Source: Heteronotia binoei (lineage: Eukaryota). From it: DNA of 64,000 nucleotides. Positions 48,701 through 57,700 of the stretch are shown here, in pieces. The stretch's first letter is position 1. Every line of letters starts with the position of its first letter. The position numbers are program-made. The DNA lies in NCBI RefSeq assembly GCF_032191835.1, contig NC_083230.1, positions 79,360,001-79,424,000 on the forward strand, in the 5' to 3' direction.

Positions 48701-51700
48701 AGCAGCCAAAGGAGCAAATGTAACTCATGCTGAAACAGTCTGTTGATGTGCTTTGAATGGTGGCTGTAATTTGCTGGGGTGTTCCAATACCCTGGTGAAT
48801 TCCAAAAATGACGCAGCCCTTCAGTGGAGTGAATCTGTGGTCTTTCTATCCCTAAAGGATGACAAAGAAAGTCAAATGTTTATATTGAGGCACCTCATGC
48901 TCCAAGGGCCACTACAGATGTTCAGAATAAGGCAGTGTTTGTGGTTAATTTCTGGGCTTCCATGCCCCATCATCACACAGTGACTGACTATGGAAGTCAA
49001 CTACTTCTAATTTGTTCAGTTAGTTTTTTTTCTAGGCACCAGGGTTCCCAACCAAGATTAAACTATAGTTCAGAATCCTGATTACTAGGAAAGAATATCA
49101 TCTCAGAGTATTAATGCTATTGGGGTTCTGTCATCAGTCTCAGGGAAGGCATATTCAAGCCCAGCAATTACTCCTGGTGTGTGCCTGTCACAACCAAATC
49201 TATTTTTGGTGCAAAGAGGAATTGGCTATGCTATAGATTCCATCAAATCCATCCTGTTTCAGCAAGATGAGAGCACTCTAATTAATAGTGAGATCTCTTT
49301 CATCCCTGCCTGCTTTTGATGATTTCTGGCTAGGATTTGTTTCTTTTAAAAATAAATTTGTTAGTGAAAATGTAAATAGGAACTGTCCTGCTGAGTAAAT
49401 GCTTGGATGGAAGTGAATCAGAAAGATACCCATGCCCCCCAAGATCCTTTCCAAAAGTACTGAGAGATCTGAGCCACCCCTCTCACACTGCACTGTGCAG
49501 CTGCTGAGGAAACAAAATGCATCTTCTTCGTGGTCTCTGTGCAGTCCCACATATGGGTAATCCGTCAGGATCAAGCCCGACCTCGGAGAATTCAAAGCAA
49601 TCTTGAAGCGTTAATTTTAGCGCGCCCTCCCGTCGTCCCAGGGAGGAGGCATCACCTGCACATGCCTGGACGAAGGGGAGGCGCCTAACCCACTCAGTTT
49701 CTTCTTTACCGCCGTCCGGAACACACCTTCTTCACTGAGTCTCCTGTTTTTTCATCGCAATCCGATCCTTCACCGTCTTCATTCTTCGCTCTTCACTTCT
49801 CCTGGTATCGTTTAAAAAAAAAAGCTGTACTATCTCTTCAAACTTTTCCCGTCCCATTCCCCCCCCAGGCGGATGGAAGGGAAGGATAAAATCGCTTTCA
49901 AACCGTGTGTCCACTGTGCCGCTAAAATTCCATCGAGAGACGGCCACTTTTTATGTCTCTTTTGCCTCGGCGAGGCACACCATATTGATACTTGCGTGCA
50001 CTGTAGCCATTTCGGCAAACAAGCTCGAAAAAATCACGTCGCAAGACTCAGAAGCCATTTGCTTGAGTCATCTCTGCGCCCGGCTATGTCCCACGCCTCG
50101 GCTCCTCAGACTTCGCCACCATCCCTAGCTCTAAAGGGAATAGCGCCACTGGCAGCTTCCATGGCCTTGGTTCCCAGTAAGCCTAAGTCCGGAAAACACT
50201 CGAAGAAGTTGGACGATTCCAGGAAGCGTCACCACTCAGAATCGACTTCTAAGGAACCCGAAAACTCCTAAGAAACCCAAGACAAGCCATAAGCCATCGG
50301 ATCCAACTTTTTCGGCAAGGCTTCCCACACCGCACCCGACGGCCAGCTCTGGCGCCCCGGTTCCGACAACACCGGCCTCGAAGGCAACCTCGACACCTGC
50401 CATTACGCCTCTCGAGATCGTTCACATCCACTCTCGGTCGCCTTCGATCCATGAATCTTTACCGGAGCAAATACTGAACACCGAGTCCCCGGACTCGACC
50501 AGAAGCCAGTGCCTCAATATCCTGGACGTGCGCTCCTTCCGAGAGGTCTCATTATCTCCACAGACAATATGAGTACACTCCCTTCAAAGAGAGCCGTCGA
50601 CTCCGAAAGAACTGCCCATCCGTATCCGAGCCAAGAGGTCCAGAAGCGGTCACAGGGAACGCTACTACTACTATACTCCATCGAGGTCCAGGTCACCATC
50701 CCCTCGTGGATACCAAAGACACCGAAGGTCGCCATCCACGGGTTCTTATCGACATACCCATGACAATTCTCGGTACCGTGACGACCCCCGACGCCATGAG
50801 TCGCCTCAATACCGAGACCATACACACAGAGAAGACCGTTCTCGGTATTGTGAGACCCCTCCACGCCGAGAACATTCATATTATGAAGATCGTCCTCGGT
50901 ATCGAGAGGTCCCTGCTCACTATACTACGAAGCCTAGATCGTCTTCACCAGCCAGATCGACCTTGATCGGTTCCACCAAACCACGGACACAGCCCTCGCT
51001 AACAGAACTGACTACCAAACCTCTGGACTTAGACACCCAGGAAGAATCCGAGGCAGAGCACTCTGACTCCTCCCATTCCTCAACCTCAGGTCTCCATTCA
51101 CCAGCATCTGACATTGCAAAACAGACTGACCTATCTCCATCAGAGGGACCAAAATTCTACTTGGATCTCTTATCCAACATGGCGAACTCCCTCAATGTTA
51201 AATTAACCACTGACGCGCCTAGAGTCTCAGCTGTGGTCTACGACCTCGTACACGCTGACCTGCCTGCAGGCTCCTCCTTCCCGATGCTTCCAGTCCACCT
51301 CAAAACCCTGAAAGAGGCTTGGGACAAACCAGCATCAGTACCACCAACTTCAAAACGGGTCGAATCACTCTACAAGGTTCATGCCCCTGAGGCCAAATTT
51401 CTATTCAACCACCCTGCACCGAACTCCATGATAGTGCACTCGTCATCTAAATCTAAACAGACAAGACACCCTGTTCCTCCGGAGAGGGAAGGCAAAAAAC
51501 TCGACACGATTGGGAGAAAAATTTACTCCCTTACCACTGCCACTACAAAAATCCACAACTATATGACATACTTCTCAGCGTACGCCTTTCACTTAACCAC
51601 ATATCTGAACACCCTGGTTCCTTCTCTGCCTGAAGCAACACAAAAACAAGCCTCTCATGCCCTACAAGAGCTCGCGAGAGTCAGTAAGCAGTAGATTAAT

Positions 51701-54700: not shown

Positions 54701-57700
54701 ATGCAACCCACAACCAAGGCAACAAAATCTCAACTCAGAGATTTTCAAAGTGGATTGTGGCTGCCATTACATTATGTTATGAACTGGCAAAACAGCCAAT
54801 ACCAGAATATGTACGAGCTCACTCTACTAGAGCCGTTGCAACCTCATCAGCCTTCTGCAAGGGCGTCCCGATGGAGGACATCTGTGCTGCTGCGGTCTGG
54901 TCCTCCCCATCCACATTCGCCTCGCACTACGCCTTAGACGTCCGTGCTCAGCGTGACTCGTCCTTCGGACAGGCTGTGCTGTGATCCATCTTTGACTGAT
55001 CCTCCCTGACACTCAACCGTGAGTACAATCCTATTATTCTTGGCTTTACTAACCATATTTCTGGTTACAGACCCAGCACCCACCTTCTGACAGAATAGCT
55101 TGCTAATCACCCATATGTGGGACTGCACAGAGACCACGAAGAAGATGGACAGGTTTCTTACCTGTAACTAGTGATCTTTGAGTGGTCATCTGTGCAGTCA
55201 CACATGCCCACACATCCTTCCCCGCAGCTGGATGCTTATTATCAATAGAATTGGTCCACCTATACGGCGGCGGGAAGAAACTGAGTGGGTTAGGCGCCTC
55301 CCCTTCGTCCAGGCATGCGCAGGCGATGCCTCCTCCCCGGGACAACGGGAGGGCGCGCTAAAATTAACGCTTCAAGATTGCTTTGAATTCTCCGAGGTCG
55401 GACTCGATCCTGACGGATTACCCATATGTGTGACTGCACAGATGACCACTCGAAGATCACTAGTTACAGGTAAGAAACCTGTCCTTTTTGATGGCAGTGA
55501 ATGCAACTACCTTGATATTCTTAAGATAATACTTACCAAAAAAGAATGGGGAATGCGGGTGATATTGCATAGGAAGCCTATCTTGTAGACAGAAAACATT
55601 GCTCTTATTTCTTCTTAGAACACTGCTGGAACATACAGATTTTCCTAAGAACCATACAAAGGCTTTCCCATTGTGTGCATTTTAAAGTGCATTCCCTGAG
55701 AATGTAACCATCATTCCATTTTCACACACTGCATGGGAACAGTTAAGCAAGACAGCTCCTGTACCACTGTCCTACTTGCCCAGTTCCATTATTTCCAAGA
55801 CAGCAGAAAGGAGGGACCATACTGTAAGGAAAGCCCCTTCAATGCCTTTGTAGTTTTTTAAAGAGAAATTCATATGCTTTTTGTGCAGATAGGATCTATC
55901 ATTCCTGTTTTACAAGGACAGGAAAATGAGGATAAGATTTGATGATTGGACAGAAACCCCACACTGAAACTTGGAAAGTATGACAATAGTACAAAGGTAG
56001 TTGTTTTTGTCTTGTCAGCATTATATAAACTGTGTAGTTGCTGTATGTATTAGCTGACTAATCTATGCTGTCTGCAGTGGGGGAAACAGTGAATTCATGC
56101 CACCATTATGCTTATCTCTGGGGGAGGACAAGCTGCACACCTTTTTAACATGTCATAGTCTGGGCTCTCCCTGCACTGAAACAAACAGCCATCACTGGAG
56201 GAGGGAGGGCAGCAGTGAGGCGCCCTTCAATCATGCCTAGGCCCAAACCCAGTCAAAAACTACATCCTCAGCATTTAAATTGCTTGGGATGTGGTTTAAT
56301 TGCTGATTACGGCTTGGTAGGCCAATTTGTGGCTGCAAGTTGGGTGAACAAAATAACAAGTCCCACATCCTGGGAGTCTCTCTGTGTAGGTAAAAAGTAC
56401 CTGAAATACCTGGATCCCTGGTCATTTGGTACTTGGCCACTTCTTTTCAGAACTTTGGATTTTGGCATCTGCTGTACTCACTGTGGGTAACCTGGGTGGC
56501 AGATGTTTGTAAATGTTGCATCTTCTTGAAGAAAGAGATCTCGGATGACAGTCTTGTGGCAATGCTGTCAAGGTGAAAGAGGTCAACTGCCTGTGATGCT
56601 TACTTTCCCATTTCAGTAGCAGGGGAGATTAGGCCCAACTGCATATAAGTGATCCAAGCAACCACTTGGATTGACAACACTTTTATGGCAGCTGATCAAG
56701 TCTGGTGTCATATGAAATGGGTATGCAACGTTTCAGAGCATCCTGCAGCACAGCCTACCAAAACATCTTAGCCCAGCCCTGGCAGTGAGAACAAGAGCTG
56801 GGAATATGCTTCCCCCAGACAGTGCAGATGATGCTGATGAATCTACAGTTCCATAGACTAGACCCCCCGGAAAGAGGTTCCTTCAGGCTCACAGGAGGTT
56901 CTCTCTTTGCCGTTATCAATAGCAAGAAGAGAAGATCAGTCATTGCACAGAAGCACAGCAACCAAATAAAGTAATTTCAGTTCCTTTCTGATGTCAGGAG
57001 CTATCAGCAGAGTTATGGAGAACTCGTCTTATATACTCGCTATTTCTTACCAAAGCTGCCTGATGTAATTTGGGATGAAAAGAGAACGTGAAATGCCCTT
57101 ATATCCACAATGGTAAATGCTGGCTTGCTTCAAGGAGATGCAGCATTTACAAACATCTGCCACCCAGGTTACCCACAGTGAGTACAGCAGATGCCAAAAT
57201 CCAAAGTTCTGAAAAGAACTTGGGCTATGTGCAATGTGCAGGAATTCCATTCTCTTGTTTTATATCAGTTCTGTTCCTCAGCCCAGACTTGTAACTGGTC
57301 TCCTTGTGTCTAATCACCTGTAAAGAGTAAGGATTACCTAACAAAAGCTTTTCTAAGTGGATGCTTCTTAAGCCAGAAATGGCCAACACCGCAGGTCAGC
57401 TAGTAAGAAAGTTATGGGCCAATAACTTTGGTAAGTTTTTCTGCTTGTAAATTCCTTAGTTCTTAAATGGTTTTAACTGGCTGATTTTAGGCTTGAATGT
57501 AATATGTATTTACTCTTTTAATATGTCTTGCATCATGAAGTCAGAGTAGATCGCCACCCTGTCTGTCTCATGTTATGTGCCTCCTGAGCTGTTGAGATCC
57601 TAATAAGATCAGTGAGGTTTTTACTTACAGTAGCCTCTAGAGAGCTGAGTGGCTCCTTGCCCCAGAAACTTTGACCAGAACCAACAGTTGAAATTAGATC

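What the first reader, a model, noticed from the sequence alone, without database searches (positions are those of the whole stretch)
49521..55484. Structurally complete DIRS1-type retrotransposon with ITRs and an ICR encoding the exact circle junction
Seen: 174-bp ITRs, unique outer termini and a 97-bp ICR whose two halves are complementary to the left end (49521-49558) and right end (55426-55484). All ORFs are present and there is no TSD. Known: this is the DIRS1 architecture, which replicates through a circular intermediate integrated by a tyrosine recombinase and is absent from mammals. Inference: ITR divergence of about 4% and nine or so disabling lesions point to a fairly recent but dead copy, so younger active relatives may exist in this genome.
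Basis: partly seen in the sequence, partly recalled or inferred. Interest (0 to 1): 0.65.

Follow-up and report, generated by a model that had tools for sequence, protein, structure and literature searches.

The report
Decayed DIRS1-like retrotransposon in squamate genome
This is a full-length but mutationally dead copy of a DIRS1-type jumping gene, which uses a tyrosine recombinase instead of an integrase, lying in a lizard-like genome; it is an ordinary member of a kind already well described in reptiles, amphibians and fish.

Summary
Window 49521-55484 is bounded by inverted terminal repeats (169 nt ungapped, 96%; about 183 nt gapped). A 100-nt internal complementary region (55106-55205) is the reverse complement of the left end (41/42) and, directly abutting, of the right end (58/59). 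There is no target-site duplication.

The coding content is that of vertebrate DIRS1-like elements:
- a gag with a LAP2alpha-like domain;
- a pol with RT, RNase H and a Dam-like methyltransferase;
- a Cre-like tyrosine recombinase whose reading frame overlaps all of pol.

All three genes are broken, by about 11 lesions in total: 3 frame changes and 7-8 stops.

A neighbouring sesquipedalian-2 gene is 91% identical to a gecko protein, so the host is a squamate, probably gekkotan, and not human. The closest proteins in public sets are only 50-59% identical.

The copy looks fairly young: CpG o/e is 0.69 against 0.16-0.30 in the flanks, and 5 of 7 ITR mismatches lie in CpGs.

Copy number, intact relatives, catalogue identity (Repbase/Dfam) and the empty site could not be checked. 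Verdict: a new member of a known kind, of low interest.

The parts
49521..55484 (+). Whole DIRS1-like element (5964 nt; ends uncertain by 1 nt: 49520/49521 and 55483/55484)
   Evidence: Ends defined by the ICR complementarity and read. GC 0.50 and CpG o/e 0.69, against 0.30 and 0.16 in the flanks. Strong negative GC skew over the element.
49521..49704 (+). Left inverted terminal repeat
   Evidence: 169 nt ungapped at 96%; the gapped alignment has 183 columns with 173 matches.
49873..52130 (+). gag (ORF1), broken: 2 frame changes and 2 stops. The 3' bound is approximate, projected from relatives.
   Evidence: tblastn of gag relatives: 25 of 150 hit both ends. Of those, 16 of 25 show 2 frame changes and 19 of 25 show 2 stops. 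441 relatives at E<=1e-3, best 52% identity.
49906..50004 (+). gag N-terminal Cys/His motif (C-x2-C-x9-H-x2-C-x2-C-x4-H-x4-C-x2-C), a putative zinc-binding module
   Evidence: The eight C/H columns are kept in 19-23 of the 21-24 relatives aligned at each column. No Pfam hit, no PDB sequence hit, and the protein atlas gave only chance-level scores.
51120..51900 (+). gag C-terminal LAP2alpha-like domain (approximate bounds)
   Evidence: The profile of the window piece plus 31 relatives (A4) hits the LAP2alpha dimerisation domain 2v0x at E 6.8e-11. Pfam LAP2alpha is found in relatives P0130 (3.9e-7) and P0127 (2.9e-3). The window piece alone has no Pfam hit, and its AF2 model found no significant fold match.
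52165..53985 (+). pol (RT-RNase H-methyltransferase), broken: 4 internal stops, no frame change
   Evidence: It matches pol-only relatives as a single tblastn match in one frame (P0001, P0004, 49% identity). 42 of 43 relatives covering at least 1500 nt show 4 stops. Residue 1 of P0005 maps to 52165.
52387..52872 (+). Reverse transcriptase domain
   Evidence: Pfam RVT_1, E 1.1e-24, 87.8 bits against a cut-off of 29.6. The YIDD motif is present in the translation.
53190..53420 (+). RNase H domain (approximate, projected from relative P0014)
   Evidence: Relatives carry RT_RNaseH (PF17917) at the matching position, and the continuous pol match spans it. The window's own piece there has no Pfam hit.
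53563..53832 (+). Dam-like methyltransferase domain
   Evidence: Pfam Dam at E 3.2e-3, 17.6 bits, below the cut-off of 28.1. Relatives reach 1e-8. The DxFAS, FPP and PxW columns are conserved in 37-42 relatives and kept in the window.
52167..54984 (+). Tyrosine recombinase ORF in another frame than pol, overlapping all of pol. Broken: 1 frame change and 2 internal stops.
   Evidence: The same frame carries the long open run across pol and the YR domains. Relatives P0281 (951 aa) and P0295 (982 aa) match in this frame from near the pol start. 26 of 33 YR relatives show 1 frame change and 30 of 33 show 1 stop downstream of pol. One further stop lies in the overlap.
54027..54227 (+). YR N-terminal SAM-like / core-binding domain
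   Evidence: Pfam Phage_int_SAM_4 at E 1.2e-3 and SAM_1 at 1.8e-2, both below cut-off. 9 of 16 YR-only relatives match these families at E<=0.1. The region aligns to the Cre N-domain in the profile search.
54330..54984 (+). YR catalytic domain (approximate start)
   Evidence: The window pieces keep the R, K, H-x-x-R, W and Y columns in alignment A3. The A2 profile hits Cre/Tre (17 of 18 PDB hits, best E 3.4e-4). The AF2 model of relative P0271 (pLDDT 78.6) matches Cre at E 1e-8 and TM about 0.5, then XerA, lambda Int, Tn1549 Int and XerH.
55106..55205 (+). Internal complementary region: 55106-55147 complements the left end, 55147-55205 complements the right end
   Evidence: 41/42 and 58/59 complementary. 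The halves abut with a 1-nt overlap at 55147.
55274..55456 (+). Right inverted terminal repeat
55457..55484 (+). Right extension beyond the ITR, the 'rE' of the DIRS1 literature, present only here and, inverted, in the ICR
   Evidence: Read and covered by ICR arm I2. The term comes from PMC3266345 (passages).

Best explanation
The region is one full-length, non-functional genomic copy of a DIRS1-like (DIRS order) tyrosine-recombinase retrotransposon of the vertebrate type, in a squamate, probably gekkotan, genome.

Shown here: the anatomy. In order it runs left ITR, gag (Cys/His module plus LAP2alpha-like domain), pol (RT, RNase H, Dam-like methyltransferase), a Cre-like tyrosine recombinase ORF that overlaps all of pol in another frame, the ICR, the right ITR and a 28-nt right extension. 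There is no target-site duplication.

Inferred from work on Dictyostelium DIRS-1 and from comparative work. When the family was active, a sub-genomic RNA lacking the outer ends would be reverse-transcribed. The ICR, which holds the two ends back to back in complementary form, would serve as the internal template or splint that restores and joins the ends. The tyrosine recombinase would then insert the product by conservative recombination at a very short shared sequence, which is why no duplication flanks the copy.

This copy cannot do any of that by itself, because all three genes carry stops and frame changes. Its retained CpGs, near-perfect ICR/termini match and CpG-dominated ITR mismatches suggest it was inserted fairly recently on an evolutionary scale and has since decayed neutrally under methylation.
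For: Repeats: ITR 169 nt at 96%, E 4e-75. ICR halves E 1e-12 and 7e-22, 41/42 and 58/59.

Domains: RVT_1 at 1.1e-24, Dam-like at 3.2e-3 plus conserved motif columns. Relatives carry RT_RNaseH, Dam, Phage_integrase and SAM-like domains.

YR: catalytic columns are kept in the window pieces, the relatives' profile hits Cre, and the model of a relative matches Cre at E 1e-8 with 53 PDB hits at E<=1e-3.

gag: the profile hits LAP2alpha 2v0x at 6.8e-11. This matches PMC4495291 (abstract, section 3.2) and the Xenopus families (PMC9210276 passages).

Overlap: over a 464-codon stretch of the overlap, about 14 stops are expected in the YR frame and none is found inside it (P about 6e-7). The third frame shows 24 observed against 31 expected. 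Of 13 relatives examined, 11 extend in that frame upstream of the pol stop.

Decay: pol has 4 stops, YR has 1 frame change plus 2 stops, and gag has 2 frame changes plus 2 stops.

Youth: CpG o/e is 0.69 against 0.30 and 0.16 in the flanks. Of 7 ITR mismatches, 6 are transitions and 5 lie in CpGs.

Host: sesquipedalian-2 is 91% identical to Sphaerodactylus townsendi, 84% to Hemicordylus and 83% to Sceloporus.
Against: Several domain calls on the window's own pieces are below Pfam's curated cut-offs (Dam 17.6 bits against 28.1; SAM-like 19.6 against 27), or absent altogether (RNase H piece, gag pieces, YR catalytic pieces). They rest on relatives and profiles.

The AF2 model of the window's gag piece (pLDDT 70) found no significant fold match: 0 of 41 at E<=1e-3, with 2v0x only at rank 15 and E 5.5.

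The overlap of the two ICR halves is 1 nt here, not the 3-bp junction described in the DIRS1 overview (PMC3266345 passages).

No second copy exists in the window: 0 DNA hits and 0 HSPs from 303 related proteins. No protein above 59-60% identity was found. Membership of a repeated family in this genome is therefore inferred, not shown.

The mechanism is taken from Dictyostelium and was not tested for any vertebrate element.
Confidence: 0.93

Rival explanations
1. The copy, or its family in this genome, is still active, and the apparent lesions are assembly errors or tolerated features.
For: High CpG retention (0.69) and a 98% ICR/termini match. The catalytic residues of RT (YIDD) and YR (R, K, HxxR, W, Y) are still readable. 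Some frame changes could in principle be homopolymer errors.
Against: For this copy, 7-8 of about 11 lesions are in-frame stops, that is substitutions rather than indel-type assembly errors, and they are spread over all three genes. For the family nothing could be tested: no host genome was on hand, and no near-identical protein exists in the public sets (best 54-60%).
Confidence: 0.04
2. It belongs to another tyrosine-recombinase group (Ngaro-like or PAT-like), or is an LTR retrotransposon or Crypton DNA transposon, rather than DIRS1-like.
For: The RT/RNase H profile of relatives is closest to Ty3/Gypsy RT among solved structures (4ol8 at 1.2e-34, 7q5b at 1.9e-34). All YR elements share a Cre-like recombinase.
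Against: The terminal repeats are inverted, not direct or split-direct. The only direct-repeat family is a 26-nt piece of the ITR that is also in the ICR. An ICR and a methyltransferase domain are present. No DDE integrase or protease domain was found in any open piece. There is no TSD. RT is present, which excludes Crypton.
Confidence: 0.02
3. Part of the element has been co-opted by the host, for example the gag LAP2alpha-like domain or the recombinase, and the locus is a host gene in the making.
For: DIRS1 gag was domesticated twice in mammals (PMC4495291 abstract). Many relatives sit inside host gene models in public annotations.
Against: Every ORF, gag included, carries stops and frame changes. 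The complete terminal structure is retained, as expected of a plain insertion. The host-gene names of relatives look like annotation chimeras.
Confidence: 0.01

Closest known systems
Xenopus DIRS-like families in Repbase (e.g. DIRS-37_XT), as described in PMC9210276 (passages read)
   Same: Size range is 4.1-6.2 kb. There are three ORFs, with overlap mainly between ORF2 and ORF3. ORF1 is gag-like with a LAP2alpha domain, ORF2 has RT/RH plus DAM/MT, and ORF3 is the YR. ITRs show a few left/right differences, and the ICR is made of two short parts complementary to the two ends.
   Different: ITRs here are longer (about 183 nt against about 120). Protein identity to amphibian relatives is only about 30-53%. 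The host is a squamate. Direct comparison with the Repbase sequences was not possible.
Reptile DIRS1-like elements: Anolis carolinensis (775 sequences in 42 families, PMC3266345 passages) and turtle elements with a LAP2alpha-like gag (PMC4495291 section 3.2)
   Same: These are the nearest named proteins: Anolis, Sceloporus, Pogona, Pelodiscus, Chelydra, Chrysemys and Gopherus at 45-59% identity. The domain order is the same.
   Different: No named relative exceeds 59% identity in any gene, so this is a separate lineage or family. Whether it is already in Repbase or Dfam is unknown.
Dictyostelium discoideum DIRS-1, the founding member (PMC7192593 Introduction; PMC3266345 passages)
   Same: It has non-identical inverted terminal repeats, an ICR complementary to both extremities (33+55 nt there, 42+59 nt here), a YR ORF overlapping pol, an MT domain and no TSD.
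   Different: The drawn ORF order there is gag, YR, pol. Here the YR catalytic part lies 3' of pol. The element there is 4.8 kb against 6.0 kb here. The gag is not known to be related. The ICR requirement and cDNA forms were shown experimentally only there.
Ngaro-like and PAT-like YR retrotransposons
   Same: They share RT/RH plus a Cre-like tyrosine recombinase, and there is no DDE integrase.
   Different: Those carry split direct repeats (A1...B1 A2 B2), and Ngaro lacks the MT domain (PMC3266345 and PMC9210276 passages). Here there are ITRs, an ICR and an MT.
Mammalian LAP2alpha (TMPO) and the ZNF451 LAP2alpha isoform
   Same: The gag C-terminal domain profile matches the solved LAP2alpha dimerisation domain 2v0x at E 6.8e-11.
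   Different: Those are domesticated host exons under selection (PMC4495291 abstract). Here the domain is part of a decayed transposon gag.

Membership tests
DIRS1-like retrotransposons (DIRS order) | Inverted terminal repeats bounding the element | tested here: met
   169 nt ungapped at 96%; the gapped alignment has 183 columns with 173 matches; E 4e-75.
DIRS1-like retrotransposons (DIRS order) | [quoted passage not shown] | tested here: met
   55106-55147 against the left end is 41/42. 55147-55205 against the right end, including the 28-nt extension, is 58/59. The overlap of the halves is 1 nt, not the 3 bp described in PMC3266345.
DIRS1-like retrotransposons (DIRS order) | Tyrosine recombinase instead of a DDE integrase | tested here: met
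   The R, K, HxxR, W and Y columns are kept. The relatives' profile hits Cre, and the model of a relative matches Cre at E 1e-8. No integrase (rve) hit in any open piece. The window's own catalytic pieces give no Pfam or PDB hit by themselves.
DIRS1-like retrotransposons (DIRS order) | RT and RNase H of the Ty3/Gypsy-related type | tested here: met
   RVT_1 at 1.1e-24 in the window. The profile of 24 relatives hits Ty3 RT structures at about 1e-34. RNase H was seen in relatives only.
DIRS1-like retrotransposons (DIRS order) | Methyltransferase (Dam-like) domain after RNase H, which separates DIRS1/PAT from Ngaro and VIPER | tested here: met
   The window piece scores E 3.2e-3, below Pfam's cut-off. 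Relatives reach 1e-8. Motif columns are conserved in 37-42 relatives and kept in the window.
DIRS1-like retrotransposons (DIRS order) | No target-site duplication | tested here: met
   The flanks read share no direct repeat next to the ends.
DIRS1-like retrotransposons (DIRS order) | Overlap of the YR and pol reading frames | tested here: met
   The YR frame is stop-free over a 464-codon stretch of pol where about 14 stops are expected. Long YR-frame proteins exist in relatives (P0281, P0295).
DIRS1-like retrotransposons (DIRS order) | Repeated, dispersed family in the host genome | not testable with these tools
   Only this 64-kb window of the host is on hand, and there is no other copy in it.
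DIRS1-like retrotransposons (DIRS order) | Placement of RT/YR inside the DIRS1-like clade in a phylogeny with Ngaro, PAT and Gypsy outgroups | not tested
   No named reference sequences of those groups could be fetched. The assignment rests on architecture and on the nearest hits carrying the same domain set.
Ngaro-like / PAT-like elements | Split direct repeats (A1 ... B1 A2 B2) | tested here: not met
   Only one direct-repeat family was found, a 26-nt ITR piece also present in the ICR.
LTR retrotransposons (Ty3/Gypsy) | Direct LTRs, DDE integrase, 4-6 bp TSD | tested here: not met
   The repeats are inverted, there is no integrase domain and no TSD.

The most novel reading that the evidence does not exclude
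The recombinase ORF starts 2 nt after the pol start codon and stays open through all of pol (more than 600 codons) in relatives from amphibians to squamates.

The boldest reading not excluded is that this Pro/Ser/Thr-rich overprinted N-terminal extension is translated, for example by leaky scanning, and has a function of its own in the replication cycle. That would make it one of the longest conserved overlapping gene pairs in a eukaryotic mobile element.

A second, weaker possibility concerns integration. The flank palindrome (CAAAA / TTTTG) and the GAAAC shared by the left flank and the right extension might reflect a sequence-specific integration site for this gekkotan lineage.
Probability: 0.15. 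Interest if true: 0.4.

Novelty: new member of a known kind. Interest (0 to 1): 0.15.

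Why it matters
It matters little beyond annotation. The locus is a clean, textbook-complete example of the vertebrate DIRS1 architecture (ITR, right extension, ICR, gag with LAP2alpha-like domain, pol, overlapping YR), in a squamate lineage for which my two searches of the held paper library found no specific description of DIRS elements.

It could serve as a seed for annotating this family in gecko-type genomes. It also documents the lineage from which mammalian LAP2alpha-type domains derive, and gives one more data point on the long pol/YR overlap. 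It raises no open question by itself.

Tried and rejected
I used open pieces by reference instead.
- Single YR pieces against PDB gave nothing relevant: 0 hits, and 2 chance hits.
- A whole-pol profile against PDB was swamped by RT hits: the 60 rows shown, of 231, were all RT. I then built a YR-only alignment (A2), which worked.
- The gag fold search gave no significant match.
- The gag N-terminal piece gave nothing in PDB and only chance-level scores of 0.80-0.82 in the protein atlas.
- An alignment of the short MT piece with whole relatives (A5) was poor and I did not use it. It was replaced by pairwise column counts.
- Rfam found 0 matches in the window and the tRNA scan found 0, so there is no tRNA-related or known RNA feature.
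- A second literature search for DIRS in geckos listed nothing relevant among its 15 rows, none of which holds 'DIRS'.
- I considered and rejected chance inverted repeats (E-values), an LTR, Ngaro, PAT or Crypton identity, host co-option (all genes broken) and a human origin (squamate neighbour gene).
The N run at 17114-17248 was left as it is.

Full report
**Observation**

- The repeat finder on 48500-56500 returns an inverted pair, 49536-49704 / 55274-55442 (169 nt, 96%).
- It also returns two shorter inverted pairs that tie an internal segment to the two ends: 49520-49561 with 55106-55147 (98%), and 55426-55489 with 55142-55205 (95%).
- In a blastn self-comparison of the whole window these three matches have E-values of 4e-75, 1e-12 and 7e-22.
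- Counted exactly, the left end matches the first ICR half at 41 of 42 positions, and the right end matches the second half at 58 of 59.
- The two halves abut and share a single base (55147), so each end is uncertain by one base.

With gaps allowed, the ITR similarity runs from the first bases of the element on the left to 55456 on the right (183 columns, 173 matches). The left end therefore has no unique terminus. The right end has a 28-nt extension (55457-55484) that recurs only, inverted, in the ICR.

This is the 'right extension' of the DIRS1 literature (PMC3266345, passages). The flanks share no direct repeat.

**Coding content**

Among the open pieces on the + strand:
- one carries Pfam RVT_1 (E 1.1e-24, domain 52387-52872);
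- one carries a weak Dam hit (E 3.2e-3, below the curated cut-off);
- no piece carries an integrase or protease domain.

*pol.* A search with the RT piece found 858 proteins at E<=1e-10. The best are 50-54% identical, from unnamed contigs and from turtles, lizards and a newt. Many are named after host genes, which looks like annotation chimeras. tblastn of these proteins on the element shows that pol-only relatives (P0001, P0004) match 52096-53979 as a single match in one frame at 49% identity. Full-length relatives carry RVT_1, RT_RNaseH and Dam. The methyltransferase motif columns (DxFAS, FPP, PxW) are conserved in 37-42 relatives and kept in the window.

*Recombinase.* A search with one open piece 3' of pol found 33 proteins, best 56-59% identity (Anolis carolinensis, Gopherus, Chelydra). 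UniRef names among them include 'Core-binding (CB) domain-containing' and 'Tyr recombinase domain-containing'.
- Single pieces find nothing in PDB.
- A profile of 16 YR-only relatives (A2) hits Cre/Tre in 17 of its 18 PDB matches, best E 3.4e-4.
- Of the 16 members, 9 match Phage_int_SAM_1, 9 match SAM_4 and 7 match Phage_integrase at E<=0.1.
- An AlphaFold model of relative P0271 (pLDDT 78.6) matches Cre at E 1e-8 and TM about 0.5, followed by XerA, lambda integrase, Tn1549 integrase and XerH. It has 53 matches at E<=1e-3.
- Aligned as separate rows, the window's own pieces keep the Arg, Lys, His-x-x-Arg, Trp and Tyr columns.

*gag.* An exhaustive search with the largest gag piece found 441 relatives at E<=1e-3, best 52% identity.
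- A profile of that piece plus 31 relatives (A4) hits the solved LAP2alpha dimerisation domain 2v0x at E 6.8e-11.
- Two relatives match Pfam LAP2alpha.
- This agrees with Abascal et al. (PMC4495291, abstract and section 3.2) and with the Xenopus DIRS-like families (PMC9210276 passages).
- Against it: the window piece alone has no Pfam hit. Its model (pLDDT 70) found no significant fold match, with 2v0x at rank 15 and E 5.5.
- The gag N-terminus has eight Cys/His positions conserved in 19-23 of the 21-24 relatives aligned at each position. It has no Pfam, PDB or atlas counterpart.

**Overlapping frames**

The long open run across the RT-RH region, in a frame other than pol, first looked like an oddity. 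It lies in the same frame as the recombinase domains.
- From position-specific base frequencies, about 14 stops are expected over a 464-codon stretch of that frame, and none lies inside it (P about 6e-7).
- By the same method the third frame shows 24 stops against 31 expected.
- Relatives P0281 (951 aa) and P0295 (982 aa, a Xenopus laevis chimeric model) match in this frame from near the pol start. Of 13 relatives examined, 11 extend in it upstream of the pol stop.

The recombinase ORF (52167-54984) therefore overlaps all of pol (52165-53985). This is the arrangement described for DIRS1-like elements (PMC3266345 and PMC9210276 passages).

The two ORFs begin 2 nt apart. The gag tail and pol share a frame, with no stop between 52021 and 52165. 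Whether gag and pol were once one ORF is unresolved.

**State of the copy**

| Gene | Frame changes | Internal stops | Basis |
|---|---|---|---|
| pol | 0 | 4 | 42 of 43 relatives covering at least 1500 nt |
| YR, downstream of pol | 1 | 1 | 26 of 33 (the other 7 match on one side only); 30 of 33 |
| YR, within the overlap | 0 | 1 | |
| gag | 2 | 2 | 16 and 19 of the 25 relatives that hit both ends |

All three genes are broken, so the copy is not autonomous.

**Age**
- The element keeps CpG o/e 0.69, against 0.30 and 0.16 in its flanks.
- Of 7 ITR mismatches, 6 are transitions and 5 lie in CpGs.
- The ICR differs from the termini at 2 of 101 positions.

These figures point to a fairly young insertion. 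I give no absolute date, because that would rest on recalled substitution rates.

**Host and context**
- A 298-codon ORF at 36878-37774 (-) carries a PH domain.
- It is sesquipedalian-2: 91% identical to Sphaerodactylus townsendi, 84% to Hemicordylus and 83% to Sceloporus.
- The window is thus squamate, probably gekkotan, and not human. The species itself seems absent from the protein sets.
- The element lies about 11.7 kb from that ORF, on the other strand.
- There is no other copy or coding remnant in the window.

**Mechanism (inferred)**

By analogy with Dictyostelium DIRS-1, a sub-genomic RNA is reverse-transcribed, the ICR restores and joins the missing ends, and the recombinase integrates the product without a duplication. 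In Dictyostelium the ICR is essential, and the cDNA is single-stranded and mostly linear (PMC7192593 abstract and Introduction). Nothing of this was tested for vertebrate elements.

**Comparison and verdict**

[quoted passage not shown] Architecture, domain set and overlap match the known vertebrate DIRS1-like kind.

Two library searches found no paper on DIRS elements of geckos (listings only).

I file it as a new member of a known kind, of low interest.

Noticed in passing
window 36878-37774 (-): A single open frame of 298 codons with a PH domain. It is sesquipedalian-2 (PHETA2-type), 91% identical to the protein of the gecko Sphaerodactylus townsendi. This places the window in a squamate, probably gekkotan, genome.
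   Followed up: yes
window 49906-50004 (+): The gag N-terminus carries eight Cys/His positions (C-x2-C-x9-H-x2-C-x2-C-x4-H-x4-C-x2-C), conserved in 19-23 of the 21-24 DIRS gag relatives aligned at each position. It has no Pfam, PDB or atlas counterpart. It may be an undescribed two-zinc module.
   Followed up: partly
window 49508-49520 and 55473-55494: The two flanks are reverse-complementary over 5 nt next to the insertion (CAAAA on the left, TTTTG on the right). The left flank also shares GAAAC with the element's right extension at nearly the same distance from the joint. This is a post hoc observation on one copy and could be chance.
   Followed up: no
window 52021-52165 (+): The gag tail and pol are in the same frame with no stop between them. 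Two predicted proteins of relatives (P0017 Chrysemys, P0013 Pogona) join the gag C-terminus to pol. A single gag-pol ORF in this lineage is possible.
   Followed up: partly
window 56441-56535 and 57124-57218: A 95-nt inverted repeat at 97% with 588 nt between the arms, about 1 kb downstream of the element. No obvious duplication flanks it. It may be a small foldback or non-autonomous DNA element.
   Followed up: partly
window 30623-31107, 43477-43971, 41897-42343, 14185-14619; also 4214-4489, 30064-30326, 23056-23350, 40982-41263, 41488-41770: Two dispersed repeat families (about 450-500 nt and about 280 nt), with 3-5 copies each at 71-86% identity in both orientations. They have no tRNA or Rfam match and are unclassified.
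   Followed up: no
window 1392-1609: A tandem repeat of a 99-nt unit, 2.2 copies, 85% matches.
   Followed up: no
window 17114-17248: A run of 135 N, left untouched. An ORF listed across it (16801-17520, -) was not searched.
   Followed up: no
proteins P0003, P0005, P0008, P0096, P0272, P0278, P0295, P0299 and P0302: Many public gene models named after host genes (RAD51 homolog 2, mediator subunit 19, WASH complex subunit 2, CNG channel beta-1, IP6 kinase 3, CTP synthase 1-B, eIF2B beta, CHD6) contain DIRS pol or YR segments. These are likely annotation chimeras in reptile and amphibian proteomes.
   Followed up: no
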